Origin: an uncultured Gammaproteobacteria bacterium
Lineage (GTDB): Bacteria; Patescibacteriota; Patescibacteriia; Magasanikbacterales; UBA922
Direction of reading: 5' to 3'
Assembly: GCA_964604685.1 (NCBI GenBank)
Contig: CAZRZS010000001.1
Location: forward strand, 1 to 55,222
DNA length: 55,222 bases
Each line of letters starts with the position of its first letter. The first letter of the stretch is position 1. The position numbers and the translations under genes are program-made. This document shows positions 86 to 16,759 of this stretch, in pieces. A model generated the notes under the pieces. The model was not told where the DNA came from. It did no database searches and saw only the letters and a program-made list of their open reading frames with translations.

Positions 86-93
86 CCGAGTAT

Positions 94-147
94 GCGAAAT
101 CCGCCCCGTCCGCCTACGCTAACGCTTCGGCGGACATCAGATATACG
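94..147 (-). repeat. GC-rich mosaic element, copy E1 (inverted relative to E2)
   Basis: The reverse complement carries the blocks tatat, gcgttagcgtaggcg and gcggatttcgc in the same order as E2. There is also an internal hairpin, gtccgcc(108-114)/ggcggac(129-135), with a cgc-ttcg-gcg tetraloop option. Confidence 0.55.
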
Positions 148-264
148 CGGACGAAATAGCCAAAAATTTCTTTATTAATTTTTAGATTTTTTTGATAATT
201 TATTTCAGGTCAAACATAATTTCTGATATAAGCCAATTATTATTAATTATTTAACCAGAATACT

Positions 265-684: not shown

Positions 685-688
685 AAAT

Positions 689-1696: not shown

Positions 1697-2277
1697 AAAA
1701 TAAACTAATTATTTTTGAGGGGATTGATGGCGTTGGCAAAACAACACTATCTAAACTTTTGCAGAATAAACTCGTGAAACTAGGATTTAAAACTGTTAGA
1801 TACGAAGATATTGAAGAAAAAAATAGCGGATTCAATCAAATTAAACCATTTATTAAAAAAAATACACCTATTGATTCTAGCTTATTGTTTTATATTGCTT
1901 CTGCGATCTATAAATCACGACAGATAGAGAAATTATTGAAACATAATTGGATTATTTGCGACCGATATATCTATTCCACTTTCGCGTATCATAAAATAAG
2001 AAATGCCAATATGTCCTTAATTCCGGATATAAAAAGAATGCCGATTCGACTACCAGATTTTTTATTTTTAATAAAAGTTAATGATGATATCAGACTAAAA
2101 AGGACCAAAGCTAGATCCGATAATAATGCTTATGATTTTAAAATAAAAACAAATAGAAATCTTATAGGAAAAATGGAAAAAGAACTCGAGAAATTTAAAC
2201 CAATAATAATTAATAATTCCTACTCAACTCCTATAAATGTTGTGGAAAATATTTACCAAATAATAAACAAAGATTAA
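1693..2277 (+). CDS. tmk: Thymidylate kinase family protein (dTMP kinase-like)
   Basis: P-loop IIFEGIDGVGKTT, a CDRY motif and a basic LID-like segment RLKRTKARSD. The length of 194 aa fits the family. Confidence 0.7.
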   Translation: MKNKLIIFEGIDGVGKTTLSKLLQNKLVKLGFKTVRYEDIEEKNSGFNQIKPFIKKNTPIDSSLLFYIASAIYKSRQIEKLLKHNWIICDRYIYSTFAYHKIRNANMSLIPDIKRMPIRLPDFLFLIKVNDDIRLKRTKARSDNNAYDFKIKTNRNLIGKMEKELEKFKPIIINNSYSTPINVVENIYQIINKD

Positions 2278-2299
2278 CAAAGAATAAAAAAGTGTCTAT

Positions 2300-2535
2300 T
2301 CATAGGGGTGCTTGACATGTTTTGGCCTTTGGGCATTCACCCCTCGTATACTGCCGTCAAATAATACCTGTGGAAAAAGCAGGTTCGTTTGTTATGCGGG
2401 GACTGGCGCCCCAACTAATTTATCAGCTTATTTAGCTCCTACAAGAAGGCTACACGTTAGGCGACGGGGACATAAACCCAACACGACGCTACGTAGATTT
2501 CACTTGTAAAAGCATACCATAGGTGGTATGCTTTT
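2300..2535 (+). ncRNA. Candidate structured small RNA of unknown class, ending in an intrinsic terminator
   Basis: It is a GC-rich island in an AT-rich genome. Local stems are ggggtg(2305)/cacccc(2338) and cctg..cagg. A possible -10 tatact sits at 2347-2352. The 3' 72 nt are duplicated at 1-73. The indel between the copies breaks the frame of overlapping ORF 2312-2509. Confidence 0.35.
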
Positions 2536-2547
2536 ATTATATGAACA
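2464..2547 (+). repeat. Direct repeat copy B (partner of 1-85)
   Basis: See copy A. The two copies flank the three-gene module at 265-2277. Confidence 0.9.
2508..2535 (+). terminator. Intrinsic terminator hairpin
   Basis: aaaagcatacca / tagg / tggtatgctttt. Confidence 0.75.
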
Positions 2548-2548
2548 A

Positions 2549-2645
2549 GGGATATACGGTTCGGGGCTCGGCTCGCAACTTCGCATAAGCCCAACGTTAG
2601 GCGCAATTGCGGATTTGCCTTTTAAGGTTGGCGGACAGAAAATTT
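2549..2645 (+). repeat. GC-rich mosaic element, copy E2
   Basis: Ordered blocks: gggatata(2549), a bulged hairpin cggttcggggct..agcccaacg, GTTAGGC(2596-2602), the palindrome cgcaattgcg, gcggatttgcc(2609), ttttaag and ggcggacagaaaattt(2630-2645). Confidence 0.7.
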
Positions 2646-2674
2646 AAAATATTATCCTTAATATCTATTACACA

Positions 2675-3292
2675 ATGAACATAGATAAATCACATTATTA
2701 CGATGGAAAATTTTATGAAATTTTCATTGACCGAGCGTTGAAGGAAGTGAGAGATATTATTGTTGAACAGATAGAAGCCGACAGTACCGTAGTAGATATC
2801 GGTTGCGGCACTGGCTCCTTAGTTTTTGACCTTGCTGAAAAGTGTGAATTAGTCACAGGCATAGAGCTTTCGTCAAAAATGGTTATTCATGCTCAACGTC
2901 GCCAGCAATCAAATGGAAACAGTAATGTTAATTTCATACATGGCGATTCTAAAAGCTTACCTCATTTTCAAGATCAACAATTTGATTATGCAACTATCTC
3001 AATGGCAATTCACGAGATGCCTCCTGATTTACGCATGCAGGTTTTAAATGATGCAAAACGTATCGCCAAAAAAATAATTATTGCCGATTATGTCGTGCCG
3101 CAACCTCTCAACTTTGCAGGAATTATAACTCGCATTGTTGAGTTTCTGGCAGGTATTGAACATTTTAGGGGTTTTAGAGATTTTCAAAGAAACAACGGAA
3201 TATATCAATTACTCCAAAACTGCCAGCTTTCTATTTGCGGTGAATCAACAAACAAAAATGGAACAATAAGGGTTGTGGTTGCTCAACAATAG
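2675..3292 (+). CDS. Class I SAM-dependent methyltransferase
   Basis: Motif I VVDIGCGTGSL and the post-I acidic residue in GIELS. The 205-aa length is typical of Methyltransf_11/25 proteins. Confidence 0.8.
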   Translation: MNIDKSHYYDGKFYEIFIDRALKEVRDIIVEQIEADSTVVDIGCGTGSLVFDLAEKCELVTGIELSSKMVIHAQRRQQSNGNSNVNFIHGDSKSLPHFQDQQFDYATISMAIHEMPPDLRMQVLNDAKRIAKKIIIADYVVPQPLNFAGIITRIVEFLAGIEHFRGFRDFQRNNGIYQLLQNCQLSICGESTNKNGTIRVVVAQQ

Positions 3293-3294
3293 AC

Positions 3295-3405
3295 AAATTT
3301 CTGTCTGCTTAAAAAAGATGAGGCAAATCTGCAACTCTTCGCCAACCCTTCGGGACGTTGCACTCTGGCTCGGTGCTTCGCACGCGCCTAACTAATTATA
3401 TCCCC
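3295..3405 (-). repeat. GC-rich mosaic element, copy E3 (inverted relative to E2)
   Basis: The reverse complement reads ggggatata..GTTAGGCgcg..gcagatttgcc..ttttttaag..cagacagaaattt, with the blocks in the same order as E2. It contains C(UUCG)G-type hairpins at 3341-3361 and gtgcttcgcac at about 3374-3384. Confidence 0.7.
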
Positions 3406-3439
3406 GTCAACACATTTTCTGTGAATAACTGAAGAGGAT

Positions 3440-3781
3440 ATGAGATGGATATTAAGATCCAAAATTCATAAAGCAATTGTAACTAAAGCCGACTTAAATT
3501 ATATAGGCAGTATTACAATTGATGAAGAATTAATTGAAAAAGCTGGTTTTTGGCCTGGCGAAAAAGTTCTAGTAGTTAGCAATACTTCAGGTACGAGATT
3601 AGAAACTTATGTTATTGTCGGTAAAAAAAATTCTGGCATAATTTGTATGAATGGCGCCGCCGCCCACTTGATTAAAGTTGGTGAGGAAATAATTGTAATG
3701 GGCTTTGAATTAACAGATAAGCCAACCAAATCCAAAAATATCCTAGTTGATAAAAATAATAAATTCATGAAATTTCTATAA
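3440..3781 (+). CDS. panD: Aspartate 1-decarboxylase proenzyme
   Basis: LRSKIHKAIVTKADLNYIGSITIDEEL contains the self-cleavage G-S site. ETYVIVGKKNSGIICMNGAAAHL is also present. Confidence 0.9.
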   Translation: MRWILRSKIHKAIVTKADLNYIGSITIDEELIEKAGFWPGEKVLVVSNTSGTRLETYVIVGKKNSGIICMNGAAAHLIKVGEEIIVMGFELTDKPTKSKNILVDKNNKFMKFL

Positions 3782-3815
3782 AATAAAACGCCATTATGAT
3801 ATAATATGCTTACTT

Positions 3816-6056
3816 ATGAATAAATTAGCCAAAAAACTAGCTATAGGTTTGATGTTGGTAAGTTTAGTGTATTATCTGCCCGTTTTTGCGACCGAAGTTA
3901 GTGAAGCAGACTTTGACCGCAATTACCTCATTTCCGATGAAGAAATACAAAACTACACAAGTATGACCCGGGCTGATATACAGGCTTTTCTTGACGACTA
4001 TGGTGGATATATTTCCACCTATCATGCTGATGATATTGATGGTATCCGCCGACTGGCTTCTGACATAATTTACCGCGCAGCTCTAGAATACAAAATCAAT
4101 CCTAAATATCTTCTGGTAAAATTACAAAAAGAAATGAGCTTAATTACTGATAAAAATCCAACATCAAATCAATTAGATTTTGCCACTGGCTATGATTGCC
4201 CCGACTCTGGCGGCTGTGGTGAAAAAAACCGTGGCTTTGGCAAACAGGTTGATGCTGCTGCTGGTATTATCCGTTGGTACTATGATCACTATTCTACCGA
4301 AGATTGGATCAAACAGCCTAACCGCACATATATTATCGACGGCCAAGTGGTAATTCCTAAAAACTATGCCACAGCTTTTTTGTATACTTATACGCCGCAC
4401 CTCCACGGTAATCTAAATTTTTGGAAACTTTGGCATACTTGGTTTGGCCAAGTTTATCCAGATGGTTCCTTGATCAAAGGCTATAACTCCCCCACTGTCT
4501 ATCTAATCCAAGAAGGTAAAAAACGCGCCATAAGTAGTATGAGTGTTTTAATTTCCCGTTATAACCCCAAAATGATCATTTCCATACCAGTAGCAGAATT
4601 AAATAATTATGAAAATGGCAAAGAATTAACTTTTGCCAATTATTCCATTCTAAAACAAAATACCAACTATTATCTAGTTGACTTTGACACTATCCGGCCT
4701 TTTGCTAATTACAATGTGGTTAAAGCTCTAGGATATAACCCAGGTGAATTTATTGAAGTTACCCCGACCGATATTTCCAACTACACTTTAGGTAAAATTA
4801 TTACGGCTGAAGTAAAAAACTTCACAGGCCGTCTGGTTCGCGGCAAAGAAACCAAGGGCTTATATTATCTAAAAGACAATTATTATTATTTCATATCTGA
4901 TGAACAAATGGCGAAAATTAATTTTCCTAATTTAAGTGAAGAAACTGTGTCAATTACTGATTTACAGAATTATACAGATGGCGGTTTGCTAAAATTCAAA
5001 GACGGCACCCTGCTTGGCATCAAAGGTTCAAATAAAATTTATGTAATTGAGAACGACAAAAAACGCCACATTGCTTCTGAAGAAGTTTTTAACGGTTTTG
5101 GTTTTAATTGGGACAATATTATTTGGACTGACCAACTAACCGGCATTTCCCATCTAACTGGACAGGCCCTATATTTACCCACCCGCCTAATTGATAAAGA
5201 AGAAAATAATAATATAGCTTCAACTACTGAAGAAGTAGAAAAAAATAGCAAAATGCAAACAACACCAACTGAAGAAATCGCTTATCTTGGTAAAACCTTT
5301 ACCACTAACTTGGAAACCTATTTAATCGCTGACTACGAAACTGAAGAAATTTTAGCTGGTAAAAATGTGGATGTAATCCGACCTATGGCTAGCTTTGTTA
5401 AAGTCATGACTGGTTATCGTCTTTTAAAAGAAGGTTTGAATCTAAACTACACTTCAACTTATCAATCCAATTTACACAAAGCCGTTTATCACCATTTCCG
5501 AACTGTTGATGGTGAAAAATTCATCAATCGCGACCTCATGTGGTCATTATTAATCTCTTCTTTAAACACTCCTGCTCGTATCTTAGTTAATGAAGTTGAA
5601 ATAGATGAAAGACAATTTATTGCCCGTATGAATAAACAACTAAATGAATGGGGGTTGACAAAAACAAAATTTACTGATACTTATGGTTATGATTTAGGTA
5701 ATGTCACGACCGCGCGTGAATTCATGACGTTGTTTAAACAAACAACGCGGAACATGATGCTGAAAAATATACTGGCGAAAAAATCCTATGAATACGATGA
5801 ACTAAAAGATCTAGACGGCAAACCCCATCATTATGATAATCATAGCAATGCCTTGGTTAATGCTACTGGTTTGAAATTCAATATAATTACCAGCAAAACT
5901 GGCTATTTAAATGAAGCCCGCGCCTGCTTGGTTATGACTATTGAACGCCAGACTGATGGTAAAAAATTCATTGTCATCACCATGGGTAATCCTGATTATG
6001 ATAATCGTTTTCTTGAACCAAAAAAAATAGCCAATTGGGCAATTAATAATTTCTAA
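3816..6056 (+). CDS. Secreted or membrane-anchored protein with a C-terminal D-alanyl-D-alanine carboxypeptidase (peptidase S11, PBP5-like) domain and a large N-terminal domain
   Basis: It has an N-terminal signal/anchor. The three PBP motifs are SxxK (MASFVK), SxN (SSLNT) and KTG (SKTGY). The N-terminal ~470 aa carry repeated Y(L/V)I(Q/E)xxKKRxI motifs. Confidence 0.75.
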   Translation: MNKLAKKLAIGLMLVSLVYYLPVFATEVSEADFDRNYLISDEEIQNYTSMTRADIQAFLDDYGGYISTYHADDIDGIRRLASDIIYRAALEYKINPKYLLVKLQKEMSLITDKNPTSNQLDFATGYDCPDSGGCGEKNRGFGKQVDAAAGIIRWYYDHYSTEDWIKQPNRTYIIDGQVVIPKNYATAFLYTYTPHLHGNLNFWKLWHTWFGQVYPDGSLIKGYNSPTVYLIQEGKKRAISSMSVLISRYNPKMIISIPVAELNNYENGKELTFANYSILKQNTNYYLVDFDTIRPFANYNVVKALGYNPGEFIEVTPTDISNYTLGKIITAEVKNFTGRLVRGKETKGLYYLKDNYYYFISDEQMAKINFPNLSEETVSITDLQNYTDGGLLKFKDGTLLGIKGSNKIYVIENDKKRHIASEEVFNGFGFNWDNIIWTDQLTGISHLTGQALYLPTRLIDKEENNNIASTTEEVEKNSKMQTTPTEEIAYLGKTFTTNLETYLIADYETEEILAGKNVDVIRPMASFVKVMTGYRLLKEGLNLNYTSTYQSNLHKAVYHHFRTVDGEKFINRDLMWSLLISSLNTPARILVNEVEIDERQFIARMNKQLNEWGLTKTKFTDTYGYDLGNVTTAREFMTLFKQTTRNMMLKNILAKKSYEYDELKDLDGKPHHYDNHSNALVNATGLKFNIITSKTGYLNEARACLVMTIERQTDGKKFIVITMGNPDYDNRFLEPKKIANWAINNF

Positions 6057-6066
6057 TTTAAATAAT

Positions 6067-6858
6067 ATGCTGGTCTTCTCAGCCATCACTCCCCATCCGC
6101 CTTTACTCATACCGAATATCGGCAAAGAGGAAATAAACAAAATCAAACAAACTAAAGAAGCCATGAAAAAACTGGAACAGGATTTGTATTTGTCCAAACC
6201 TGATATTATTGTCATCATCTCGCCTCATGGCAGTCTGTTTCCAGACGCCTTCACTATAAACGCCCATGATCAATTTATTTCCAATTTTGCTCAATTTGGT
6301 GATATGCAGACTAAATTAGACTGGCGCGGGGACCCTTCTTTGGCTGCAGAAATTGACCACCAAGCCCATGGCAAGAATTTCCCGATTCAACTTATTAGTG
6401 AAACCACTTTAGACAATGGTTCAACCGTACCTCTGTACTATTTAACTCAGCATTTGCAAAATATAAAAATTCTACCCATTGGCTATAGTGCCTTGGACAA
6501 TAAAACCCACCTAGACTTTGGCTATCTATTAAAAAATGTCATTATGGACACCTCTAAACGCATAGCTGTGATTGCTTCAGGTGATTTATCTCATGGCTTA
6601 ACCAAAGAAGCTCCCGCCGGCTTTAGTGAAGTTGGCCAAGAATTTGATGAAAAACTTATGGAATTATTGGAAAATCATAATACTGCCGGCTATGCTGGCA
6701 TGGATCCTAAGTTTGTAGAAGCCGCGGCTGAATGTGGCTATCGCTCTTTCTTGATCCTCTTGGGTATTTTAAAAAATGTCAATTACAGTTTCAAAAATTA
6801 TTCCTATGAAGGGCCTTTTGGCGTTGGCTATTTAGTTGGTAATTTTATTTTGCAATAA
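6067..6858 (+). CDS. Class III extradiol dioxygenase (LigB/Memo-like) family protein
   Basis: Motifs ISPHG, LDNGSTVPL and SGDLSH in a 263-aa protein. Confidence 0.5.
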   Translation: MLVFSAITPHPPLLIPNIGKEEINKIKQTKEAMKKLEQDLYLSKPDIIVIISPHGSLFPDAFTINAHDQFISNFAQFGDMQTKLDWRGDPSLAAEIDHQAHGKNFPIQLISETTLDNGSTVPLYYLTQHLQNIKILPIGYSALDNKTHLDFGYLLKNVIMDTSKRIAVIASGDLSHGLTKEAPAGFSEVGQEFDEKLMELLENHNTAGYAGMDPKFVEAAAECGYRSFLILLGILKNVNYSFKNYSYEGPFGVGYLVGNFILQ

Positions 6859-6860
6859 TT

Positions 6861-7121
6861 ATGGAAAATATTTCCAAAGTGCTAAAAAAGAAAGTACAAC
6901 CAAAACAAAACAAGAATATATATTCTGATATTCATTATTGGACTGACGTGATTTCCTCGGCTTTTGGTGAAAAAAAGAAATTTGCCATGTATTTGGGCAT
7001 AATCAAACGCATTGGCGTGGAGGAAGCCAAAAGAATTTTTGCCGAAATTCAAGACTCTAAAGCAAAAAGTCCGGGCAAACTCTTTGTCTGGATGGCTAAG
7101 AGGGAGAATATAGAAAAATAA
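6861..7121 (+). CDS. Hypothetical small basic protein
   Basis: An 86-aa ORF packed tightly between neighbours (2-nt and 1-nt gaps, same strand). I recognised no motif. Confidence 0.45.
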   Translation: MENISKVLKKKVQPKQNKNIYSDIHYWTDVISSAFGEKKKFAMYLGIIKRIGVEEAKRIFAEIQDSKAKSPGKLFVWMAKRENIEK

Positions 7122-7122
7122 T

Positions 7123-7599
7123 ATGTTAGAAATAGTTAAACTACCAACTCCATCTTTACGTGAATGTTCTACAAAAATTGAACGGAAAGTTTTACTGTCT
7201 GCTGAAATACAGAAATTAATTAAAGATATAGTGCCAACTATGCATAATGATGACGGCATTGGCCTGGCTGCTCCTCAAGTTGGTAAAAATATTCGTCTTT
7301 GCGTTGTTGGTAAAGAAGCCACACCTGAGAAAAAAGCCGATCTAATTTTAATTAACCCAGAATGGATAAAAACAAATCGAAAAAAAGTAACTAATATTGA
7401 AGGTTGTTTATCTGTACCCAAAACTTATGGCAAAGTTAAACGTTATCGTGATATTGAAGTAAAAAGCTGGAATGAAAAAGGTGAAATCATGGAATTTGAC
7501 GCTCATGATTTTTTTGCCAGGGTCATCCAGCACGAGGTTGATCACTTAGATGGCATTTTGTTTATTGACAAGGCTAAAGATGTCTACACCGTCGAATAA
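7123..7599 (+). CDS. def: Peptide deformylase
   Basis: Motifs GIGLAAPQVG, EGCLS and HEVDHLDG. Confidence 0.95.
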   Translation: MLEIVKLPTPSLRECSTKIERKVLLSAEIQKLIKDIVPTMHNDDGIGLAAPQVGKNIRLCVVGKEATPEKKADLILINPEWIKTNRKKVTNIEGCLSVPKTYGKVKRYRDIEVKSWNEKGEIMEFDAHDFFARVIQHEVDHLDGILFIDKAKDVYTVE

Positions 7600-8581
7600 A
7601 ATTTCAGTTGTCTTTTTCGGCACGCATGATTTTGCGACCCAAATCCTACAAGGACTAATTGATAGTCCTCTTATTGAAATTAAATTAGTTATTACCCAGC
7701 CAGACAAACCAGTGGGACGAAAACAAATTTTAGAAAAAACAGCGGTGAAAGTTTTGGCGGAGAAACACGGCATTAAAATAGACCAACCTGTGTCACTTAA
7801 AACTTACAAACTTATCCCGCCACAGCGGGATCCCGTTCGCTGCGGGACAAACTTGTCCCGCCGTAGCGGGATCCCGTTCGCTACGGGACAAACTTGCAAA
7901 CTTGGCGTCTGCGCTCAATATGGCCTGTTAATTCCTAAACACATTTTAGAAACACCTAAACACGGCATCATCAACGTCCACACTTCTCTACTCCCCAAAT
8001 ACCGTGGTGCCTCCCCTATTCAATCAGCCCTAATCAATGGCGAGACTGAAACTGGCATCACAATTATGAAAATGGATGCGGGAATGGATACTGGCCCAGT
8101 TTTACTCCAAAAACCGCTTAAAATAGAGCCAGATGACACTTACCCCACCTTGAGCCAAAAGCTCTCTAAAACAGCCATTTTTGCCCTTACAGAGACCTTA
8201 AATGGGTATATTTCTGGTCAAATTATCCCTCAACCACAAGATAACTCAAAAGCCACTTACACCAAGATTTTAATGCGGGAAGACGGCAAAATAAATTGGT
8301 CTAAATCAGCGCAGGAAATTTATAATCAATATCGCGGTTTGACCCCCTGGCCAGGCATCTGGACCACCTGGCAAGACCAGCGTTTAAAACTATTAGAAAT
8401 AAAATTAGCTAAGCTAGATTTATCAGCTGGCCAAGTTAGTATAGAAAATGATAAAATATATATTGGTTGCAATAATAAAGCAATTGAAATTACAAAATTA
8501 CAATTAGAAGGCAAGCAAGCCACGGATGCAAAAACTTTTATAAACGGCCATAAGCAAATTCATGGAGAAATTCTTAAGTGA
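7580..8581 (+). CDS. fmt: Methionyl-tRNA formyltransferase, carrying a 30-aa in-frame repeat-encoded insertion
   Basis: Motifs VVFFGTHDFA, TQPDKPVGRK, INVHTSLLPKYRGASPIQ and TGITIMKMDAGMDTGP. I chose the start at ATG 7580 (MSTPSNKISVVFFG) over ORF start 7550. Confidence 0.9.
   Translation: MSTPSNKISVVFFGTHDFATQILQGLIDSPLIEIKLVITQPDKPVGRKQILEKTAVKVLAEKHGIKIDQPVSLKTYKLIPPQRDPVRCGTNLSRRSGIPFATGQTCKLGVCAQYGLLIPKHILETPKHGIINVHTSLLPKYRGASPIQSALINGETETGITIMKMDAGMDTGPVLLQKPLKIEPDDTYPTLSQKLSKTAIFALTETLNGYISGQIIPQPQDNSKATYTKILMREDGKINWSKSAQEIYNQYRGLTPWPGIWTTWQDQRLKLLEIKLAKLDLSAGQVSIENDKIYIGCNNKAIEITKLQLEGKQATDAKTFINGHKQIHGEILK
7814..7903 (+). repeat. Tandem 2 x 41-nt GC-rich double-hairpin element plus a duplicated 8-mer, in frame inside fmt
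   Basis: Unit 1 is 7814-7854 and unit 2 is 7855-7895. Each has a tcccgcc-NNNN-gcggga hairpin followed by a tcccg-ttcgct-Rcggga hairpin. acaaactt occurs at 7806-7813, ends each unit, and recurs as gcaaactt at 7896-7903. The total is 90 nt, or 30 codons (IPPQRDPVRCGTNLSRRSGIPFATGQTCKL). Confidence 0.85.
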
Positions 8582-10046
8582 CAAATCTATTTTTTTTCGC
8601 TGGCAAACCTTTTGGCTGCTGGTGATATATTTTGCTATCCGCTTAGTTTCCTATTTTCTGGCTGAACATATTATTATCCAAGGCATCTTGGTTTTTTTTA
8701 TTTTAATGCTCCTAGGCATCCTGTATTTTAAAAATCCCGAATGGGCCTGGTATTTAGTGATCAGTGAAATCTTCTTAGGTGGTTCAGGCCATTACCTAGA
8801 ATTCATCGGCCTATCCATCCGAACCCTGCTAATCGGCTTTTTTCTTTTTCTTTGGATTGCTCATCATCTAGGCCAGCGAGAATTTTTCCAGCACATTAAA
8901 ATCAACAAACAACTAATTTGCATACTAACAGCATTATTTTTCTTTTTAATTGTTAGTATGGTCAATGGTTTATACCACGAGCACGAATTTATCCAAGTAG
9001 TTAGAGATATTTTGCCCTTTACCTTTTTGTTTTTAATCTTTCCTTGCTATCATTTATTCAAACAAAATTACACCCAAGAATTTTTAGCTAGGCTGATTGT
9101 GGTTTTTATTATTGGCACAGCAATTTTTTCCCTCTTCACTTTTATCCTCTTTTCTGCTGGCATTACGGAAATTCATGACAGCTTCTATACCTGGTACCGA
9201 GATATTGATCTCGGCAAAGTTACAGACATGATGCAGGGCTTTTTCCGCGTGGTTGAACCAGGCCATTTGCTAGTTGTACCCATTATTCTTCTTATCACTT
9301 CTTTGCTTTGCCGCAATGAAAAACACCACTATATGTGGCGCCTATTGCAATTGCTAGCTATTATTGTTTTAGTTTTAAATCTCTCCCGCGGCTATTTTCT
9401 GGCCCTCATTATTGGTTTACTAATCTTAAAATACAAACACCAATGGTGGAAATGGGCTAGAGAATCGGCCACGGTTATTTTTTTAGTAATTATTATGTTT
9501 TCCGGCATTCACCTAGCCGCTAGTAATGGCTCTTCACTAGGCTGGGATTTGTTTGGCCTGCGTTTGCAGAGTTTTACTAATCCAGGGATAGAAATCTCAA
9601 CCAATACGCGCCTGATGATCCTGCCAGAGATTATAAATCTGATAAAACAAAACCCAATTTTAGGTGTCGGCCTTGGAGCTAATGTCACTTTTATTAACAC
9701 TGCTACTTACGAAACTATGACCACGCCTGCTTTTGACTGGGGCTATTTAGAAATGTGGACGGAAATGGGAATTTTTGGTGCTCTGACTCTAATTATTCTT
9801 TATGCTTTTGTGGCCTATATGCTGGTGTACAAAATACAAAAAGTGCCTAATTGGCACGATTTTGATGTCGGTTTATTGGCTGGTATAATTGCTTTTCTGG
9901 TGATGAATATTACTATCCCTGCCCTCTTCCACGTCTTTGGCATTCTCTATCTTATCTTTGCTATAACTATTGCTGTAAAATATACCAGTATTTTTGAACA
10001 AACTACGGCTTTGCTATACCGAATTTTTAACCGTTTAAAAACTTAA
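8562..10046 (+). CDS. O-antigen ligase/polymerase-like (Wzy_C family) polytopic membrane protein
   Basis: About 10-12 hydrophobic helices. The motif NLSRGYFLALIIGLL followed by a large loop is typical of Wzy_C. Confidence 0.65.
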   Translation: MEKFLSDKSIFFRWQTFWLLVIYFAIRLVSYFLAEHIIIQGILVFFILMLLGILYFKNPEWAWYLVISEIFLGGSGHYLEFIGLSIRTLLIGFFLFLWIAHHLGQREFFQHIKINKQLICILTALFFFLIVSMVNGLYHEHEFIQVVRDILPFTFLFLIFPCYHLFKQNYTQEFLARLIVVFIIGTAIFSLFTFILFSAGITEIHDSFYTWYRDIDLGKVTDMMQGFFRVVEPGHLLVVPIILLITSLLCRNEKHHYMWRLLQLLAIIVLVLNLSRGYFLALIIGLLILKYKHQWWKWARESATVIFLVIIMFSGIHLAASNGSSLGWDLFGLRLQSFTNPGIEISTNTRLMILPEIINLIKQNPILGVGLGANVTFINTATYETMTTPAFDWGYLEMWTEMGIFGALTLIILYAFVAYMLVYKIQKVPNWHDFDVGLLAGIIAFLVMNITIPALFHVFGILYLIFAITIAVKYTSIFEQTTALLYRIFNRLKT

Positions 10047-10724
10047 ACCATGCTTTTTTGAGATAATTGCTCTGGCCTCTTCATATTTCTCTACTCTACT
10101 CCTGACCCCTGGCAAATACTTCCAGGGTTTTTTGTAAGCTATCTTTGGCAACCACTGACTCATAGTACCGCCGGCTTTGATAGTGAATAATATTTCTGAG
10201 ACATAAACACCTGTCTTGCCCTGCTCTAACATAGTCAACCACAAATCCCAATCTTGGAAACGTTTTAAACTTTCATCAAATCTAAAAAAATCTTCCCGTC
10301 TGATCAAACTAGTGGTGGTGATATAGTTAATGTGTTTGAGAACGACGGGGTCAAACTCTCTGGCTGGTATTAACTTTTTGCCAAAACGATGTTTGGCATA
10401 GGCATAGGCTGCCTGCGAATTATTCTGCAGAGCCAAATACATTTTCTCCAGCATCTCCGGTTTACCCACAATATCCGCGTCCCAGAATATAACATAGTCG
10501 CCTTTGGATAAGGCAAACCCTTTATTTCTAGCTGCCGGCGCGCCTTGATTTTTCTGGCGCTGTAATTTTATACCTGCTACTACTTCCACAGGTATTTCAC
10601 TACCATCGTCAACTACAATAATTTCTAAATTTTTATAAGTCTGTTGTCTAATTGATTGTAAAGCTGCCAGTAATTCTTGATTCTGATTATATACTGGAAT
10701 AATAATAGAAATCAAAGGTAACAT
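10035..10724 (-). CDS. Glycosyltransferase family 2
   Basis: ISIIIPVYNQ..., IIVVDDGS and FWDAD. I chose the start at ATG 10724 (MLPLISIII), directly after the upstream stop. The ORF-track extension to 10826 overlaps the upstream gene. Confidence 0.85.
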   Translation of the reverse strand: MLPLISIIIPVYNQNQELLAALQSIRQQTYKNLEIIVVDDGSEIPVEVVAGIKLQRQKNQGAPAARNKGFALSKGDYVIFWDADIVGKPEMLEKMYLALQNNSQAAYAYAKHRFGKKLIPAREFDPVVLKHINYITTTSLIRREDFFRFDESLKRFQDWDLWLTMLEQGKTGVYVSEILFTIKAGGTMSQWLPKIAYKKPWKYLPGVRSRVEKYEEARAIISKKHGLSF

Positions 10725-10725
10725 A

Positions 10726-11862
10726 TTAGCGCCACTCGGATATAACTTTAAGCTGGTGTTTCCACTGAAAATTAGCCTGCATGCGGGACTGGGCATTTTG
10801 ACCCAGCTGTTTAGCATAGTCTGCATTTTTCAATAACTCTAAAATTGAATTAATCACAAACTCATCACCTTTAAATATATCCACGACTAAGCCTGTCTGA
10901 GTATGCACTACAGCTTCTTCAACTCCCCCACTTTTGCCCGCCACCACTGGTGTGCCACAAGCGGCGGCTTCTAAAAAGACTAAGCCCAAACCTTCTTCTC
11001 GACCTTCATCTGGATGAGTTAGTAAAACAAAGATATCAGCCAAGTGATAATAATTTTTTAATTCTTGATGAGGCATTTCCCCAATAAAGCGAATGGCATT
11101 TTGCAAATTCTGTTTTTGCATTTCTTCAATAAACCAATTTTTCTTAGGGCCATCACCAATTACTACCCAGACCAAATTTGGCACTACCTCTGTCAGCTTG
11201 GAAAAAATTCGTAGCAAATGCGGATAACCTTTACCATCAATCATGCGGGCAATGGTAACCATAACTTTTTTACCTTCTAGAGCATACTGGGCTCGCAGCT
11301 TATGTATAGTTTCTTCTGCTGGTGGTTCATAAAACATCTTTTCAGGACAGGGATACAAAACGACAACCTTGTTTTCCAATTCTGGCAAAATTTTTAACAG
11401 CCGATGTTTAAGTGATTCACTATTAAAAATAATCTGTTCAGCTTCACTAGTAACTTTAGTTAACATTCTACGCTTCCAAGCTGAACGCGCCCCCATTTCC
11501 ACATCCGTACCGTGGGAAAAAACCAAATAAGGTATTTTCTTTAGTTTTTTCATTAACCAACCCACATAGCCAACGGGCAAGACATGGTGGAGATAGAGAA
11601 TGTCAAATTTCTCTTTGCGATTTAGCCAAAAAATCTGCCAGAACAAACGCAGCCAACGCGGCCAGATAAATTTAGGAAAATATGGATTTTTTCTGACCAC
11701 TTTAATTCCTAAATTATTATCATACTCCTTATCACCCTTATATTTAGGCGCTAGAACTATGACCTCATTACCTTGCAAGGATTCGGCAAAATATCTTACA
11801 TAGGTGGCAATGCCACCCAAATGAGGTGGAAATTCTAAAGTGATAATTAAAATTTTACGCAT
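10726..11862 (-). CDS. Glycosyltransferase family 4 (GT-B, Glycos_transf_1)
   Basis: EGLGLVFLEAAACGTPVVAGKSGGVEEAV is the E-x7-E region. Confidence 0.85.
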   Translation of the reverse strand: MRKILIITLEFPPHLGGIATYVRYFAESLQGNEVIVLAPKYKGDKEYDNNLGIKVVRKNPYFPKFIWPRWLRLFWQIFWLNRKEKFDILYLHHVLPVGYVGWLMKKLKKIPYLVFSHGTDVEMGARSAWKRRMLTKVTSEAEQIIFNSESLKHRLLKILPELENKVVVLYPCPEKMFYEPPAEETIHKLRAQYALEGKKVMVTIARMIDGKGYPHLLRIFSKLTEVVPNLVWVVIGDGPKKNWFIEEMQKQNLQNAIRFIGEMPHQELKNYYHLADIFVLLTHPDEGREEGLGLVFLEAAACGTPVVAGKSGGVEEAVVHTQTGLVVDIFKGDEFVINSILELLKNADYAKQLGQNAQSRMQANFQWKHQLKVISEWR

Positions 11863-11863
11863 A

Positions 11864-13297
11864 TTATCTTTTAACTAAAACTAAGGCTTCTTTGATTTGT
11901 TCTTTGGTTATGGAACGGGTGACAACCAACATAATGGGATAGATAATGGCACCGGCTAAGATGGCTAAACCCCAATGAAAATTTAAATTTATATACCAAA
12001 CTCCTAAACCCATCACTGCTACGGCCACAAATAATTGTAAAAAAGTTTTACTTAAAAAAATATGCGAAATTTTAGTGATTTTTGGTATAATCATATAGCC
12101 CAATATAGTTAGAAAAATATTACCCACCAAAGCGGCCACGGCTGCACCGACCACGCCATAAATTGGAATCAAAATTACATTTAAAATAATATTTACCACC
12201 ATTACCACAAAAACAATTATTGTCTGAGTGATTTGACGATTGCAGGCATTAAGAAATGCGCCAATGGGAAAACTGATAAAGGAAAAAACTAGGCCGGCCA
12301 AGAGAATTTGTAAAGGCAAAATTGAAGCTTCATATTCAGTTGTGTAAATAGAAAGAATAATATCTTTGGACAAAACACCTATGCCCACAGTAATGGGAAA
12401 AACTATGATTAACAAATATTTTAAACCACGTTCAAAAATATAGGCCAAACGCGCTTTATTAAACATAAAATATTCACTGAAGCGTGGATAGAGTACAGCT
12501 ACCAATGCTAGAGGAATAAACTGAAAAGAATAAGTTATCTTATATGGTATGCTATACCAACCCACGGCTATGTCGCCAATTAGTTTGGAAAGTAAAATGG
12601 AATCAATATATGAATAGACACGGGCAAAAATAGCGGCTAAAGCAAAGGGTAAAATCAGCTTGCCAATAAATTTTAAAATATCCTTGTCATATTTTGGCAC
12701 TAAGTTAATTTTATAATTTTTATATAAAATTATACTGGCATAACAAACATTCAAAAAACTTGGTAAAGTAAAAGCCGCAATCAGCCAAATCAAAGGAAAA
12801 CCTAAATACAAAAAAGTCGTGCCTAAAATCAAAGTTATTAATTGGCTGGCCGTTACACCTATAGCCTCATATTTCAAATTTCCCAAAGCCCGCAGTATAC
12901 CATAGATAGAAAGATGTAAAGAATCAAACAACATGGTAATAGCTGAAAGATAAACTAAATGCTTGGTTTCTATGGGATAACCCATGAGGTTTATGGTAAC
13001 GACTGCAGCGATGTATGTAAGAATACTTAAAAAAATCTTGACGAAAATAACATTGGAAAAATATTGCTGAATTTTTTCCTTTAAACGTGAAGCTTCGCGA
13101 ATCAAAACATTATTCAAGCCTAAATCAACCAAAACCACAAATAAAGTTGTAAAAGACAAAGCAAAAAAGTATTTACCAGTACCTTCAGCGCCAATCTGCC
13201 TTGCAATTAACGTAAAATAGACAAAAGAGAGTATCTTTTGCCCAATTGAAGCCACGGTCATGTAGGCAGTATTTTTAGCAATAGTTTGGGATTCCAT
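11864..13297 (-). CDS. Oligosaccharide/polysaccharide flippase (MOP/Wzx family)
   Basis: A 477-aa protein with about 12-14 TM helices. The N-terminal KNTAYMTVASIGQKILSFVYFTLIAR is typical of the polysaccharide biosynthesis protein family. Confidence 0.7.
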   Translation of the reverse strand: MESQTIAKNTAYMTVASIGQKILSFVYFTLIARQIGAEGTGKYFFALSFTTLFVVLVDLGLNNVLIREASRLKEKIQQYFSNVIFVKIFLSILTYIAAVVTINLMGYPIETKHLVYLSAITMLFDSLHLSIYGILRALGNLKYEAIGVTASQLITLILGTTFLYLGFPLIWLIAAFTLPSFLNVCYASIILYKNYKINLVPKYDKDILKFIGKLILPFALAAIFARVYSYIDSILLSKLIGDIAVGWYSIPYKITYSFQFIPLALVAVLYPRFSEYFMFNKARLAYIFERGLKYLLIIVFPITVGIGVLSKDIILSIYTTEYEASILPLQILLAGLVFSFISFPIGAFLNACNRQITQTIIVFVVMVVNIILNVILIPIYGVVGAAVAALVGNIFLTILGYMIIPKITKISHIFLSKTFLQLFVAVAVMGLGVWYINLNFHWGLAILAGAIIYPIMLVVTRSITKEQIKEALVLVKR

Positions 13298-13334
13298 GAG
13301 ATATATTCTACTCTAAAATTAGAGAAAAGACAAT

Positions 13335-13358
13335 ACAAAAATCCCCTTGCGGGGATTT
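13335..13358 (-). terminator. Intrinsic terminator downstream of rpsI
   Basis: On the minus strand: aaatcccc gcaa ggggattt followed by tttgt. Confidence 0.7.
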
Positions 13359-13373
13359 AATATATCCATTAAA

Positions 13374-13778
13374 TTAACGCTTTCTCCATTGGTGTCCGCG
13401 TCTAGCTCTATGCTTACCAAATTTCTTTCTTTCTTTACCACGAGAATCGCGAGTTAAGAAACCTTCAGCTTTCAATAATGGCTTTAATTCTTCATTCCAT
13501 TTTACTAAAGCTCTAGCCACACCATGACGAATAGCTTCTGCCTGGGAATTAATACCACCGCCAACCACTTTTACAGAAATAGCAAAAGTTTTTTCTTTAC
13601 TCACTTTTTGCAAAGGCGCTATAACTTTGTCATACCAAAAGGCAATAGGAAAATATTCTTTAACATCTTTGCCATTTACCACAAACTCACCCTTACCATG
13701 AGCTAAACGCACACGAGCAACGGCTGTTTTACGGCGACCAAGGGCTCTAATAATTGTTTTGTCTGTCTTTGTAGGCAT
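13374..13778 (-). CDS. rpsI: 30S ribosomal protein S9
   Basis: GRRKTAVARV..., GGGINSQAEAIRHGVARAL and a basic C-terminus. Confidence 0.95.
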   Translation of the reverse strand: MPTKTDKTIIRALGRRKTAVARVRLAHGKGEFVVNGKDVKEYFPIAFWYDKVIAPLQKVSKEKTFAISVKVVGGGINSQAEAIRHGVARALVKWNEELKPLLKAEGFLTRDSRGKERKKFGKHRARRGHQWRKR

Positions 13779-13779
13779 A

Positions 13780-14142
13780 TTAAGCTTTGATAGTTAAACG
13801 TTTCATCATACCATCTCGCAATTTATTTTTTGGCAACATACCATAGACAGCACGTCGGATGACTTCGGTGGGATCTTTGTCAAAAATCTTTTTCATAGGG
13901 GTACGGCGCAAGCCACCGGGATGCATAGTGTGATGATAATAATCTTTTTGCACTAATTTTTTACCGGTAAATTTAATTTTACTAGCATTTATTACTGTCA
14001 CATAATCACCACTATCAATATGGGGCACAAAACCTGGCTTGGTTTTACCGCGTAAAATCATTGCTATCTGAGTGGCTAAACGACCAGCGGCTTTGCCAGT
14101 AGCATCTAATTCAATTTTCTTTCTTGTAATTTCTTTAGTCAT
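13780..14142 (-). CDS. rplM: 50S ribosomal protein L13
   Basis: GRLATQIAMILRGKTKP.F.PH.D.GD.V.VINA. The start is set at ATG 14142, just after the rplQ stop. The ORF-track extension overlaps rplQ. Confidence 0.93.
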   Translation of the reverse strand: MTKEITRKKIELDATGKAAGRLATQIAMILRGKTKPGFVPHIDSGDYVTVINASKIKFTGKKLVQKDYYHHTMHPGGLRRTPMKKIFDKDPTEVIRRAVYGMLPKNKLRDGMMKRLTIKA

Positions 14143-14146
14143 AAGC

Positions 14147-14497
14147 TCAAACAAATTCAATACGAGCCGTGGCGGCGGCATCACTAGACCGTCTGCCTAA
14201 TTTAGTAATCCTAGTATAACCACCTTGTCTATCCTTATATTTAGGACCAACTTCTTCCATAAGCTTTTTCACAGCTTTTTCTGTGTAGAGAACCTTTAAA
14301 ACTTGACGCCGGGCAGTCAAAGTATTTTTTCGCGCCGTAGTCACCAAAGGTTCAACTATACCTCGCAAAGCCTTGGCTTTAGCTTCAGTAGTTTTAATTG
14401 AACCATATAAAATCAGACTTTCAGCCAAATTTCTAAACATGGCTTCACGCGGAGCTTTCTTTCTGCCTAAAATTTTCTTTTCTACTTTATGACGCAT
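14147..14497 (-). CDS. rplQ: 50S ribosomal protein L17
   Basis: MRHKVEKKILGRKKAPREAMFRNLAESLILYGSIKTTEAKAK. Confidence 0.95.
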   Translation of the reverse strand: MRHKVEKKILGRKKAPREAMFRNLAESLILYGSIKTTEAKAKALRGIVEPLVTTARKNTLTARRQVLKVLYTEKAVKKLMEEVGPKYKDRQGGYTRITKLGRRSSDAAATARIEFV

Positions 14498-14505
14498 ATA
14501 TGAAA

Positions 14506-15318: not shown

Positions 15319-15341
15319 AAAATTGGTATTTAAAAATAAGT

Positions 15342-15968: not shown

Positions 15969-15970
15969 AG

Positions 15971-16366: not shown

Positions 16367-16369
16367 AAA

Positions 16370-16756: not shown

Positions 16757-16759
16757 AGT

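What the first reader, a model, noticed from the sequence alone, without database searches (positions are those of the whole stretch)
7814..7903. 90-nt GC-rich tandem double-hairpin element inserted in frame in the essential fmt gene
Two 41-nt units sit inside fmt. Each unit is a tcccgcc-N4-gcggga hairpin followed by a tcccg-ttcgct-Rcggga hairpin. The 8-mer (a/g)caaactt precedes unit 1, ends each unit, and recurs after unit 2, like a target-site duplication.

Together these add exactly 30 codons (IPPQRDPVRCGTNLSRRSGIPFATGQTCKL). The insertion falls between the conserved PVSLK and AQYGLLIP segments of Fmt. The reading frame is preserved even though each unit is 41 nt.

This resembles the Rickettsia palindromic elements that colonise coding genes. 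Without the insert, this Fmt segment would be about 10 aa shorter than the E. coli equivalent. The element may therefore have replaced native sequence.
Basis: seen in the sequence. Interest (0 to 1): 0.7.

Follow-up and report, generated by a model that had tools for sequence, protein, structure and literature searches.

The report
Tiny double-hairpin repeats translated inside fmt
Two copies of a 33-base GC-rich double-hairpin repeat sit in frame in a floppy surface loop of the methionyl-tRNA formyltransferase gene of a Magasanikbacteria (CPR) genome; they belong to a family of very small palindromic repeats, apparently undescribed, that is scattered through genes and spacers of many uncultured bacteria.

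Summary
Positions 7806-7896 hold a 41-nt tandem repeat of 2.2 copies, made of four TCCCG...CGGGA hairpins, inside an intact fmt gene. At least three assemblies carry it.

The inserted material is two 33-nt double-hairpin cores ("HH"): 7815-7847 and 7856-7888, 11 codons each. They are embedded in a pre-existing 8-nt tandem array, (A/G)CAAACTT x4.

Removing only the 66 nt restores a loop, SLK-TYKLTNLQTCKL-GVC. Its length and pattern match orthologs that lack the insert. So the "target-site duplication" is the native array, and nothing native was replaced.

In Magasanikbacteria orthologs this loop is encoded by short tandem arrays, mostly heptamers. Two other orthologs carry different hairpin insertions at the same spot.

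HH is a dispersed family. A third copy lies between convergent genes at 41326-41361. More than 117 loci match in Patescibacteria, Omnitrophota, Lentisphaeria, WOR-3 and other phyla. About a third sit in frame in real genes such as ligA, uvrA, gyrB, mfd and glmS. Most are 30 or 33 nt and lack a flanking duplication.

The best reading is a REP/RPE-like, non-autonomous palindromic element translated as a disordered loop. How it moves is unknown.

The parts
7123..7599 (+). def (peptide deformylase), upstream gene of the def-fmt pair; context only
   Evidence: ORF; Pfam PF01327 for the identical gene on L122
7580..8581 (+). fmt (methionyl-tRNA formyltransferase), 333 aa from the ATG at 7580 (343 aa from 7550); intact and carries the element
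   Evidence: PF00551 + PF02911; model matches PDB Fmt, TMt 0.88-0.90
7796..7814 (+). Left part of the native short tandem array: CTTAAAA CTTACAAACTT A. It encodes (L)KTYKL; 7806-7813 is the first (A)CAAACTT unit and 7814 is the first base of the second unit.
   Evidence: (period 8 at 7795-7814); orthologs encode the same loop with tandem arrays
7815..7847 (+). HH1, a 33-nt double hairpin TCCCGCcacaGCGGGA + TCCCGTtcgctGCGGGA (hairpins 7815-7830 and 7831-7847). It is read as (I)PPQRDPVRCG, 11 codons.
   Evidence: fold -19.2 kcal/mol; one mismatch from L003 and other Patescibacteria copies
7848..7855 (+). Array remainder CAAACTT + G, between the two cores; encodes TNL
7856..7888 (+). HH2, a 33-nt double hairpin TCCCGCcgtaGCGGGA + TCCCGTtcgctACGGGA (hairpins 7856-7871 and 7872-7888). 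It is read in another frame as SRRSGIPFATG, 11 codons. It differs from HH1 at 3 positions: two are in loop 1 and one turns a T.G pair into T-A.
7889..7903 (+). Right part of the native array CAAACTT GCAAACTT; encodes QTCKL, which aligns with QTFDW / HTCEL / KNCEL of orthologs
   Evidence: (period 8 at 7889-7904)
41326..41361 (+). Third, single HH copy: (T)CCCGCCccgaGGCGGG(G) + TCCCGAttcgcaTCGGGA. It lies in the 112-nt spacer between convergent genes 39189..41264 (+) and 41377..42444 (-). On the minus strand, one of its two hairpins (41341..41326) followed by a T-run is terminator-like.

Best explanation
The feature is two copies of a 33-nt GC-rich double-hairpin repeat (HH; general form TCCCGC-loop-GCGGGA|TCCCGC-loop-GCGGGA).

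HH belongs to a dispersed family of ultra-small, non-autonomous palindromic elements. It is comparable to REPs and REP dimers, Rickettsia RPEs, cyanobacterial small dispersed repeats and mitochondrial double-hairpin elements.

Shown here:
- Each copy sits at the same relative position (CTT-R^CAAACTT) of consecutive units of a short tandem array. That array natively encodes a variable loop of the Fmt N-terminal domain.
- Each core is exactly 11 codons and has no stop codon in the two frames used. The gene therefore stays open and intact around the element, and all conserved Fmt residues are kept.
- The structure model predicts that the extra 22 residues (Pro/Arg/Gly/Ser-rich) form a disordered loop.

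Inferred, not shown:
- That the cores are actually read through and translated.
- That the copies are passengers tolerated at a permissive site, not an adaptation of Fmt.
- That family members are copied to new sites by a trans-acting activity that recognises the conserved hairpin foot. The likeliest route is single-stranded DNA, as for IS200/IS605 and REP-RAYT systems, which insert next to a short target motif without a duplication. I give this particular mechanism only about 0.3-0.4.
- That the second fmt copy is either a second insertion into the neighbouring array unit or a local copy made by recombination within the array.
For: Insertion versus orthologs:
- 119 Magasanikbacteria/Patescibacteria Fmt homologs lack these peptides.
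- Removing the 2 x 33 nt restores an ortholog-like loop in frame.

Dispersed family:
- A third copy with changes that keep both hairpins lies at 41326-41361 in a spacer.
- More than 117 loci match in species-representative genomes of many phyla, and 25 more match in metagenomes.
- About 5 hits would be expected by chance in that collection (my estimate).

In-frame residence is a family trait:
- 44 of 125 hits lie deep inside long open frames.
- Hosts include LigA, UvrA, ValRS, GyrB, Mfd, FolC, GlmS, TsaD and Tgt.
- 22 of 27 in-frame copies in AT-rich genomes are 30 or 33 nt long.

Clean empty sites:
- In LigA an 11-12 aa insert is present in 2 of 121 orthologs and absent from the closest relatives, which are 69-75% identical.

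Not simply decaying:
- The L091 and L131 ligA flanks are 77% and 66% identical, yet the HH is identical at 33 of 33 positions.
- All 3 differences between HH1 and HH2 keep the pairing.
- The free stem position is a Watson-Crick pair in 71% of copies, with A-T, T-A and G-C variants.

No cis-encoded mobility gene:
- No gene family recurs next to the copies.

Permissive site:
- In the AF2 model (mean pLDDT 91.8) residues 84-103 score below 50 and residues 69-107 are coil. The rest matches solved Fmt structures at TM 0.88-0.90.
- The same loop carries other hairpin or tandem-array insertions in P0068, P0100 and P0014.

Precedent:
- Intragenic REP dimers encoding 20-30 aa, many in replication and repair genes, are described in PMC3733652.
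- RPEs are reviewed in PMC10969869.
Against: - No mobilising enzyme was identified and no transposition event was observed.
- No closely related genome with an empty fmt site exists in the databases searched. The next Fmt is only 63-67% identical, and a metagenome scan with the fmt flank found nothing. Recency and polymorphism of this particular insertion are therefore untested.
- The 33/33 conservation of HH in diverged ligA genes, and the conservation of the same 33-mer across genomes, could equally mean host-level function rather than selfish spread.
- The excess of lengths divisible by three in coding copies over spacer copies is not significant (22/27 against 22/35, p = 0.16).
- 21-29% of copies do have an adjacent 5-7 nt direct repeat, so a mechanism that duplicates 7 bp cannot be excluded.
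- Low pLDDT in the insert is partly expected, because the alignment has gaps there.
Confidence: 0.72

Rival explanations
1. HH is a host-functional nucleic-acid signal, and the fmt copies are kept because they do something. Candidate roles are a protein-binding palindrome (GCGGGATCCCGC centre), an mRNA stabiliser or RNase site, a terminator module, or a translational pause site. For example, they might tune def-fmt expression or Fmt folding.
For: HH is 33/33 identical in ligA genes whose flanks are only 66-77% identical. The same 33-mer, loops included, recurs in many genomes. All differences between HH1 and HH2 keep the pairing. The spacer copy at 41326-41361 sits between convergent genes and reads as hairpin plus T-run on the minus strand. 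The RNA fold is very stable, -52.6 kcal/mol.
Against: Copies are scattered over unrelated genes and spacers with no common context. Occupancy at a given site is sporadic among orthologs: 2 of 121 LigA and 1 of 120 Fmt. The fmt copies have no T-run and are not terminator-like. Both strands and all frames are used.
Confidence: 0.17
2. The feature arose locally. Slippage or duplication within the tandem array created the GC-rich hairpins de novo, with no import of an element.
For: The loop is a tandem-repeat hot spot. 38 of 119 orthologs carry an exact 3-aa repeat at a spacing of 6-8 aa, against 0.9% elsewhere in the proteins. Heptamer arrays are seen in the DNA of L123-L125. The two fmt units share the unusual T at core position 22.
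Against: The core is 70-73% GC and unrelated to the AT-rich array. It differs by a single base from copies at unrelated loci in other genomes. A related copy lies 33 kb away in the same window. Slippage can explain the second fmt copy at most, not the origin.
Confidence: 0.03
3. The repeat is an assembly or chimera artefact.
For: It is a tandem repeat in a metagenome-assembled contig, and read-level data were not available to me.
Against: The repeat spans 90 nt, shorter than typical short sequencing reads (my own knowledge). The identical protein is found on two other contigs, from JGI and ENA. The frame is preserved exactly. The family occurs in hundreds of assemblies from different groups.
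Confidence: 0.02
4. The cores are removed after transcription or translation (intron-like or intein-like), so the mature Fmt lacks them.
For: Stable hairpins and exact multiples of three would also suit precise excision.
Against: No ribozyme or intron family matched. 33 nt or 11 aa is far too small for known self-splicing elements (my own knowledge). Comparable organelle hairpin elements are reported not to be removed from transcripts (PMC2800124). Coding copies avoid stop codons and keep lengths of 30 or 33 nt, as expected if they are translated.
Confidence: 0.03

Closest known systems
Intragenic REP / REP dimers (GTAG- and CGTC-tagged palindromic repeats; Di Nocera et al. 2013, PMC3733652)
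   Same: Both are 20-40 nt GC-rich stem-loops, often paired head to head with 0-5 nt between them, and dispersed. Most lie between convergent or co-directional genes, but some lie entirely inside ORFs, encode 20-30 aa, and are notably found in replication and repair genes. Here the hosts include ligA, uvrA, gyrB and mfd.
   Different: HH has no terminal GTAG or CGTC tag; its conserved part is the TCCCG/CGGGA foot. No RAYT association was found. It occurs in Patescibacteria and other uncultured phyla not covered by that survey. Near-identical 33-mers are shared across genomes.
Rickettsia palindromic elements (RPE; Ogata et al. 2000/2002, reviewed in PMC10969869)
   Same: Both are selfish-looking palindromic repeats inserted in frame in unrelated housekeeping genes of a small AT-rich genome, and are proposed to be tolerated in surface regions of the proteins.
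   Different: RPEs are about 100-150 bp, specific to Rickettsia, and each family encodes one conserved peptide. HH is 30-33 nt, is read in several frames, and is found in many phyla.
Cyanobacterial small dispersed repeats (SDR; Elhai et al. 2008, cited in PMC5861425; details from my own memory, as the paper could not be read)
   Same: Both are very small (tens of nt) repeats with apparent mobility and no encoded protein. Both are associated with short tandem heptamer repeats and other repeats as insertion sites.
   Different: SDRs are 21-27 nt and are reported only in Nostocaceae (PMC5861425). Their sequences were not compared here.
Mitochondrial double-hairpin elements, GC clusters and repetitive hairpin-forming elements (Allomyces DHE, yeast var1 GC clusters, sponge RHE; PMC2800124)
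   Same: Both are GC-rich single or double hairpins in AT-rich genomes, with conserved stems and variable loops. They occur in tandem, insert into variable regions of protein and rRNA genes, and are not removed from transcripts. Allomyces elements lack flanking duplications.
   Different: Those are organelle genomes of eukaryotes, with unrelated sequences and lineage-restricted families.
Heptanucleotide tandem repeats in bacterial genomes (PMC4679880 and the work it cites)
   Same: The arrays that flank HH and encode the Fmt loop are short direct repeats, mostly of period 7. This is the commonest long simple-repeat class in bacteria and is attributed to polymerase slippage.
   Different: Here the array lies inside an essential gene at the same loop across a whole lineage. 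The unit sequence turns over between genomes, and the array hosts hairpin insertions.

Membership tests
Rickettsia palindromic elements (RPE) | Palindromic repeat of about 100-150 bp belonging to one of the Rickettsia RPE families | tested here: not met
   The core is 33 nt. The host is Candidatus Magasanikbacteria by its Fmt relatives. Size and taxon criteria are taken from PMC10969869.
Rickettsia palindromic elements (RPE) | In-frame insertion into unrelated protein-coding genes | tested here: met
   fmt here; ligA, uvrA, gyrB, mfd, glmS and others in related loci
REP (GTAG/CGTC super-families) | Short (20-40 nt) GC-rich imperfect palindrome, often in close head-to-head dimers | tested here: met
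   Two abutting hairpins of 16-17 nt; family-wide pattern
REP (GTAG/CGTC super-families) | Tetranucleotide tag GTAG or CGTC at one end of the stem-loop (PMC3733652) | tested here: not met
   Units begin TCCCG and end CGGGA. Flanks are TT[G/T/A] and [C/A/T]AA. The CGTAG in HH2 lies inside loop 1.
REP (GTAG/CGTC super-families) | Cognate RAYT (IS200/IS605-type tyrosine transposase) in the genome, often flanked by REPs | not testable with these tools
   Only 55 kb of the genome is available. No recurrent gene lies next to about 145 HH loci, and none lies between paired copies. A genome-wide search for PF01797 was not possible.
MITE | Terminal inverted repeats plus a target-site duplication of fixed length; usually over 100 bp | tested here: not met
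   The core is 30-33 nt. 61% of copies have no adjacent direct repeat, while 29% have one of 5-7 nt. Coding copies are mostly 30 or 33 nt, which fits insertion without a duplication. In fmt the flanking 8-mers are the native array.
Cyanobacterial SDR | 21-27 nt dispersed repeat found within tandem heptamers or HIP1, confined to Nostocaceae | tested here: inconclusive
   The association with period-7 arrays is met: 8.4% of flanks against 0.7% of controls, and a shared 6-mer or longer in 45% against 10%. Size and taxon are not met. Sequences were not compared because the paper is not held.
Intrinsic (Rho-independent) terminator | GC-rich hairpin followed directly by a T/U run, downstream of a gene | tested here: not met
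   The fmt copies are not flagged and have no T-run. Only the spacer copy at 41326-41341 is terminator-like, on the minus strand.
Known structured RNA families (Rfam 15) | Match to a curated covariance model | tested here: not met
   No hit at gathering score in the window. Only chance-level hits at 7700-8000, with E 0.17 and 0.58.

The most novel reading that the evidence does not exclude
HH may be a previously unrecognised class of ultra-small mobile cassette, 30-33 nt and so smaller than any MITE. It is shared almost unchanged across distant phyla: Patescibacteria, Omnitrophota, Lentisphaeria, WOR-3 and Bacteroidota.

A trans-acting, hairpin-reading activity would place it without duplication at TTN^NAA-type sites. 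Preferred sites would be inside short tandem (mostly heptamer) arrays, and insertion would recur at the same position of diverged orthologs, in a homing-like way.

Together with the tandem arrays, this would be a general generator of new disordered loops in essential proteins of reduced genomes. The arrays themselves might be footprints of repeated insertion and excision.
Probability: 0.3. Interest if true: 0.78.

Novelty: new member of a known kind. Interest (0 to 1): 0.6.

Why it matters
The finding extends "selfish palindromes inside essential genes", best known from Rickettsia, to the Candidate Phyla Radiation and several other uncultured phyla. The element here is only 33 nt long.

It gives three concrete handles for study:
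- a sharply defined, conserved hairpin foot (TCCCG/CGGGA) with which to look for the enzyme or binding protein;
- occupied and empty sites in conserved genes such as ligA and fmt, with which to date and test mobility;
- an Fmt loop encoded by fast-evolving tandem arrays, which shows how simple repeats and hairpin cassettes add disordered segments to core proteins in tiny genomes.

There is also a practical point. Such insertions inflate and distort gene models and alignments of marker proteins in metagenome-assembled genomes.

Tried and rejected
- tRNA or tRNA-like origin. The second hairpin loop TTCGCTG resembles a T-loop, but ARAGORN finds no tRNA in the window.
- Rfam families: no match.
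- Target-site-duplication model for fmt. Deleting 41 or 82 nt breaks the frame. The 8-mers match the native array seen in orthologs.
- "Replaced native sequence": rejected by loop lengths in 119 homologs.
- Looking for an empty or polymorphic fmt allele. The P0001 cluster holds only the same protein with two different start codons. An exact-protein look-up found one further contig, also carrying both cores. A metagenome scan with the degenerate left flank found nothing.
- Phage vector. The general pattern gives only 3 hits in 2.9 million viral contigs, and two of those are in GC-rich contigs.
- Cis-encoded transposase or other shared neighbour. ORFs between paired copies are ordinary genes such as FolC and a glycosidase-like protein. 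All-against-all clustering of 1,173 ORFs within 1.5 kb of copies gave no recurrent family except ligA itself.
- Excess of lengths divisible by three in coding over spacer copies. The trend is in the right direction but is not significant (p = 0.16).
- Literature searches for the motif, for palindromic elements in Patescibacteria, and for heptamer-plus-hairpin elements found no description of this family. The Elhai 2008 SDR paper could not be read.
- TIGR arrays and CRISPR I-E-type repeat hairpins were considered from memory only. I set them aside because there are no spacers or arrays here.
Full report
**1. The observation**

The window is AT-rich (36% GC). Its Fmt is closest to homologs that sources name Candidatus Magasanikbacteria / Patescibacteria, at 55-67% identity.

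The ORF 7550/7580..8581 encodes a complete methionyl-tRNA formyltransferase (PF00551 + PF02911) directly after def.

Inside it, Tandem Repeats Finder reports a 41-nt repeat at 7806-7896, with 2.2 copies, 92% matches and score 154. The 40-nt unit occurs at 7815-7854 and, with 3 mismatches, at 7856-7895. None of 100 shuffles produced a match.

TCCCG-N3-9-CGGGA hairpins occur five times in the window against 0.01 expected. Four are in fmt.

The stretch is 70-73% GC and is the longest GC-rich island in the window. It folds much better than shuffled sequence: RNA -52.6 kcal/mol with z -7.2, and DNA z -4.8.

The same protein is found on a JGI contig and on an ENA contig. The ENA contig differs from the window at 1 of 2,731 bases. 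The repeat is shorter than a typical short read. An assembly artefact is therefore unlikely, although I could not check reads or confirm that the assemblies come from independent samples.

**2. What exactly is inserted**

I aligned the protein with 20 and then 119 homologs. The segment from QP to QYGL is 24-26 aa in 93 of the 119 homologs and 48 aa here.

The flanking peptides TYKL and QTCKL have counterparts in relatives that lack the insert:
- P0004: NYEL..KNCEL
- P0009: TCTL..HTCEL
- P0002: TFDF KTL QTFDW

Deleting only the two 33-nt hairpin cores (7815-7847 and 7856-7888; 66 nt, 22 codons) keeps the frame. It leaves SLK-TYKLTNLQTCKL-GVC, 12 residues with the pattern xTL-QT seen in P0002.

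The DNA that remains is a perfect 8-nt tandem array, ACAAACTT ACAAACTT GCAAACTT GCAAACTT.

Other deletions fit worse. Removing 41 or 82 nt shifts the frame.

Three conclusions follow:
- Each core adds exactly 11 codons.
- The repeated 8-mers are native array units, not a target-site duplication.
- No native sequence was replaced.

The two cores are read in different frames, as (I)PPQRDPVRCG and SRRSGIPFATG.

They differ at three positions. Two are in the first loop (CACA versus CGTA). The third converts a T.G pair into T-A in the second hairpin, so all three changes preserve the pairing.

**3. The loop is a tandem-repeat hot spot**

In orthologs without hairpins, the DNA of this loop is a short tandem array with a different unit in each lineage:

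| Locus | Protein | Array | Peptide |
|---|---|---|---|
| L125 | P0069 | AATTTCA x4.6 | NFKFQISNFKL |
| L124 | P0054 | GCTATAA x4 | SYKLKAISYKL |
| L123 | P0081 | AASCTAC-type heptamers | TYKLQPITYKL |

At the protein level, 38 of 119 homologs have an exact 3-residue repeat at a spacing of 6-8 residues in this loop; 28 of them are at spacing 7. The rate in other windows of the same proteins is 0.9%.

Three other orthologs carry extra material at the same spot:
- L118 (P0068) has ATTACGA repeats with three TCCCG-foot hairpins.
- L119 (P0100) has a nested CCCGCC..GGCGGG hairpin followed by GAAGTCN x4.
- L120 (P0014) has only heptamer repeats.

Heptamer repeats are the commonest long simple repeats in bacteria and are attributed to polymerase slippage (PMC4679880).

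**4. Structure**

An AlphaFold2 model built from 120 sequences has mean pLDDT 91.8 and pTM 0.88. Residues 84-103 score below 50, and residues 69-107 have no secondary structure.

The model superposes on solved Fmt structures, including the E. coli tRNA complex 2fmt, at TM 0.88-0.90 normalised to target length.

Sequence alignment to B. anthracis Fmt (4iqf) aligns residues 7-74 and 108-326 and leaves 75-107 unmatched. The solved protein has 14 residues there.

The columns at window Fmt N132, H134 and D170 are invariant among the homologs; from my own knowledge of E. coli Fmt these are the catalytic residues.

Low confidence in the insert is partly a consequence of alignment gaps. Even so, the site is clearly a tolerant surface loop.

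**5. The cores belong to a dispersed family**

*In the window.* A third copy, GTCCCGCCCCGAGGCGGGGTCCCGATTCGCATCGGGAG, lies at 41326-41361. Its changes keep both stems. It occupies the 112-nt spacer between convergent genes. On the minus strand, one of its hairpins (41341..41326) followed by a T-run is terminator-like. The fmt copies are not.

By my estimate about 5 hits would be expected by chance.

The hits come mostly from AT-rich uncultured lineages:
- Magasanikbacteria, Staskawiczbacteria, Roizmanbacteria, Gottesmanbacteria, Saccharibacteria and Paceibacterota;
- Omnitrophota;
- Lentisphaeria and Kiritimatiellae;
- WOR-3 and Stahlbacteria;
- Armatimonadota;
- Bacteroidota and Ignavibacteria;
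- Planctomycetes.

A few hits in GC-rich genomes are probably chance.

*Conservation.* Stems are conserved and loops vary, although some loops recur (CACA, TCGCT). L003, L091 and others differ from HH1 by a single base. At the first stem position not fixed by my pattern, 71% of 110 distinct copies form a Watson-Crick pair, including A-T, T-A and G-C variants.

*In metagenomes and viruses.* A subfamily scan of metagenomes gave 25 more loci. One of them (L129) carries the same T variant flanked by AACTTA/CAAACTTA, inside the C-terminal part of a ligA gene. Viral contigs gave only 3 hits.

**6. In-frame residence is common**

By a crude criterion, 44 of 125 hits lie deep inside long open frames.

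The hosts are ordinary, often essential genes: LigA, UvrA, ValRS, GyrB, Mfd, FolC, GlmS, TsaD and Tgt.

Of 27 such copies in genomes below 50% GC, 22 are 30 or 33 nt long. In spacers the figure is 22 of 35, so the difference is not significant (p = 0.16).

For LigA the insertion is clean. It is 11-12 residues between ..ISRML and EKEYG... It is present in 2 of 121 orthologs and absent from the closest relatives, which are 69-75% identical.

A third ligA gene (L131) has the same 33-mer at the same site. Its flanks are 77% and 66% identical to L091, while the core is identical at 33 of 33 positions.

This means one of three things: recent site-preferring insertion, concerted evolution, or selection on the nucleotide sequence. 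It argues against a passively decaying remnant.

**7. Flanks**

Across 113 copies in AT-rich loci:
- 8.4% of flanks show strong tandem periodicity, against 0.7% of controls. 17 of the 19 such flanks have period 7.
- The two flanks share a 6-mer or longer in 45% of copies, against 10% of controls.
- An adjacent direct repeat of 5-7 nt is present in 29% of copies, against 1.8% of controls. The distribution cuts off sharply at 7. 61% of copies have none.
- Junctions favour TT[G/T/A] before the core and [C/A/T]AA after it.

In Lentisphaeria and Stahlbacteria the same short repeat flanks copies at different loci, so there it travels with the element.

Two readings remain open. Either cores prefer short tandem arrays as targets, as I recall being described for cyanobacterial SDRs. 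Or 7-bp duplications accumulate around them.

For coding copies, and for fmt in particular, insertion of the bare core fits best.

**8. Mechanism**

Shown:
- insertion relative to orthologs;
- dispersed, near-identical copies;
- hairpin-preserving variation;
- no encoded protein and no recurrent neighbouring gene;
- an open, intact host gene, with the cores predicted by the structure model to form a disordered loop.

Inferred: a trans-acting activity recognises the conserved TCCCG/CGGGA foot and copies the cassette.

Three features resemble single-strand HUH/Y1 transposition (IS200/IS605, REP-RAYT): hairpin dependence, a short flanking motif, and the usual absence of a duplication. This comparison rests on my own knowledge and on PMC3733652. 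An RNA-mediated route, as proposed for Allomyces double-hairpin elements (PMC2800124), cannot be excluded.

The main rival is that HH is a host signal. That would explain its strong nucleotide conservation and the terminator-like spacer copy. It fits poorly with sporadic occupancy and unrelated contexts.

**9. Comparison with known elements**

HH works like intragenic REP dimers, which encode 20-30 aa and often lie in replication and repair genes (PMC3733652). It also works like RPEs (PMC10969869).

It fails the membership tests for both. It has no GTAG or CGTC tag, is 33 nt rather than about 150 bp, and occurs in different taxa. It also fails the test for MITEs.

It parallels organelle double-hairpin elements and GC clusters (PMC2800124), and cyanobacterial SDRs (mentioned in PMC5861425).

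I found no description of this family in the searchable literature or in Rfam.

**10. Verdict**

This is a real, ordinary-in-kind but apparently undescribed family of tiny palindromic elements. Two copies are translated within a repeat-encoded loop of Fmt.

The details on the target-site duplication, the 30 codons and the replaced native sequence do not.

Interest is moderate to high. The reasons are the breadth across phyla, the same-site occupancy in diverged orthologs, and the link with tandem arrays that encode protein loops.

Noticed in passing
window 1-140 and 2463-2600 (+): A direct repeat of about 85-100 nt (12-96 against 2474-2558, 87% identical). It contains a perfect 12-bp hairpin plus T-run (AAAAGCATACCA....TGGTATGCTTTT). 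Each copy is followed by a GC-rich stretch (84-136 with a GTCCGCC..GGCGGAC hairpin; 2555-2592) and lies upstream of + strand ORFs (265.., 2675..). There is no tRNA and no Rfam match, even at E up to 0.5. It could be a repeated leader, a small RNA or another small repeat family.
   Followed up: partly
window 3332-3392 (+): A GC-rich untranslated stretch (CGCCAACCCTTCGGGACGTTGCACTCTGGCTCGGTGCTTCGCACGCGCC) with a short 11-nt tandem repeat. It lies just upstream of the ORF at 3440..3781. No Rfam match.
   Followed up: partly
Fmt loop in orthologs: L123 (codons 66-76), L124, L125, L120, L119, L118: The loop between SLK and G[IV]xAQYG of Magasanikbacteria Fmt is encoded by short tandem arrays, mostly heptamers. 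The unit differs between lineages while the two peptide half-repeats stay alike within each genome (NYEL..NYEL, TYKL..TYKL, NFKF..NFKL). This is concerted evolution of a coding microsatellite in a core gene.
   Followed up: yes
L091 3185-3217, L131, L138 and protein P0191 (ligA): NAD-dependent DNA ligases of several Patescibacteria carry a double-hairpin insertion at exactly the same site (after ..ISRML). The intervening relatives lack it. The 33-mer is identical in two genes whose flanks are only 66-77% identical.
   Followed up: yes
L047, L058, L086, L088, L105, L032, L069, L116 (Lentisphaeria / Victivallaceae); L011, L020, L053, L056, L082 (Stahlbacteria): In these lineages the double hairpin is always flanked by the same short repeat: GGATATT-type in Lentisphaeria and AAATCC-type in Stahlbacteria. 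L086 has two identical copies 173 nt apart with identical longer flanks. This suggests larger composite repeat units built around the same core.
   Followed up: partly
L077 5658-5910 and L119 1130-1290: Here the short repeats on the two sides of the hairpin core are in inverted orientation (AGTCTAA.. / ..TTAGACT; GACTTC / GAAGTC x4). The whole region could therefore form one long hairpin capped by the GC-rich core.
   Followed up: no
window 1..55222: Cumulative GC skew falls almost monotonically from about position 4000 to the end. The + strand of nearly the whole window is therefore C-rich, presumably one replichore. The orientation of the hairpin cores relative to replication was not analysed.
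   Followed up: no
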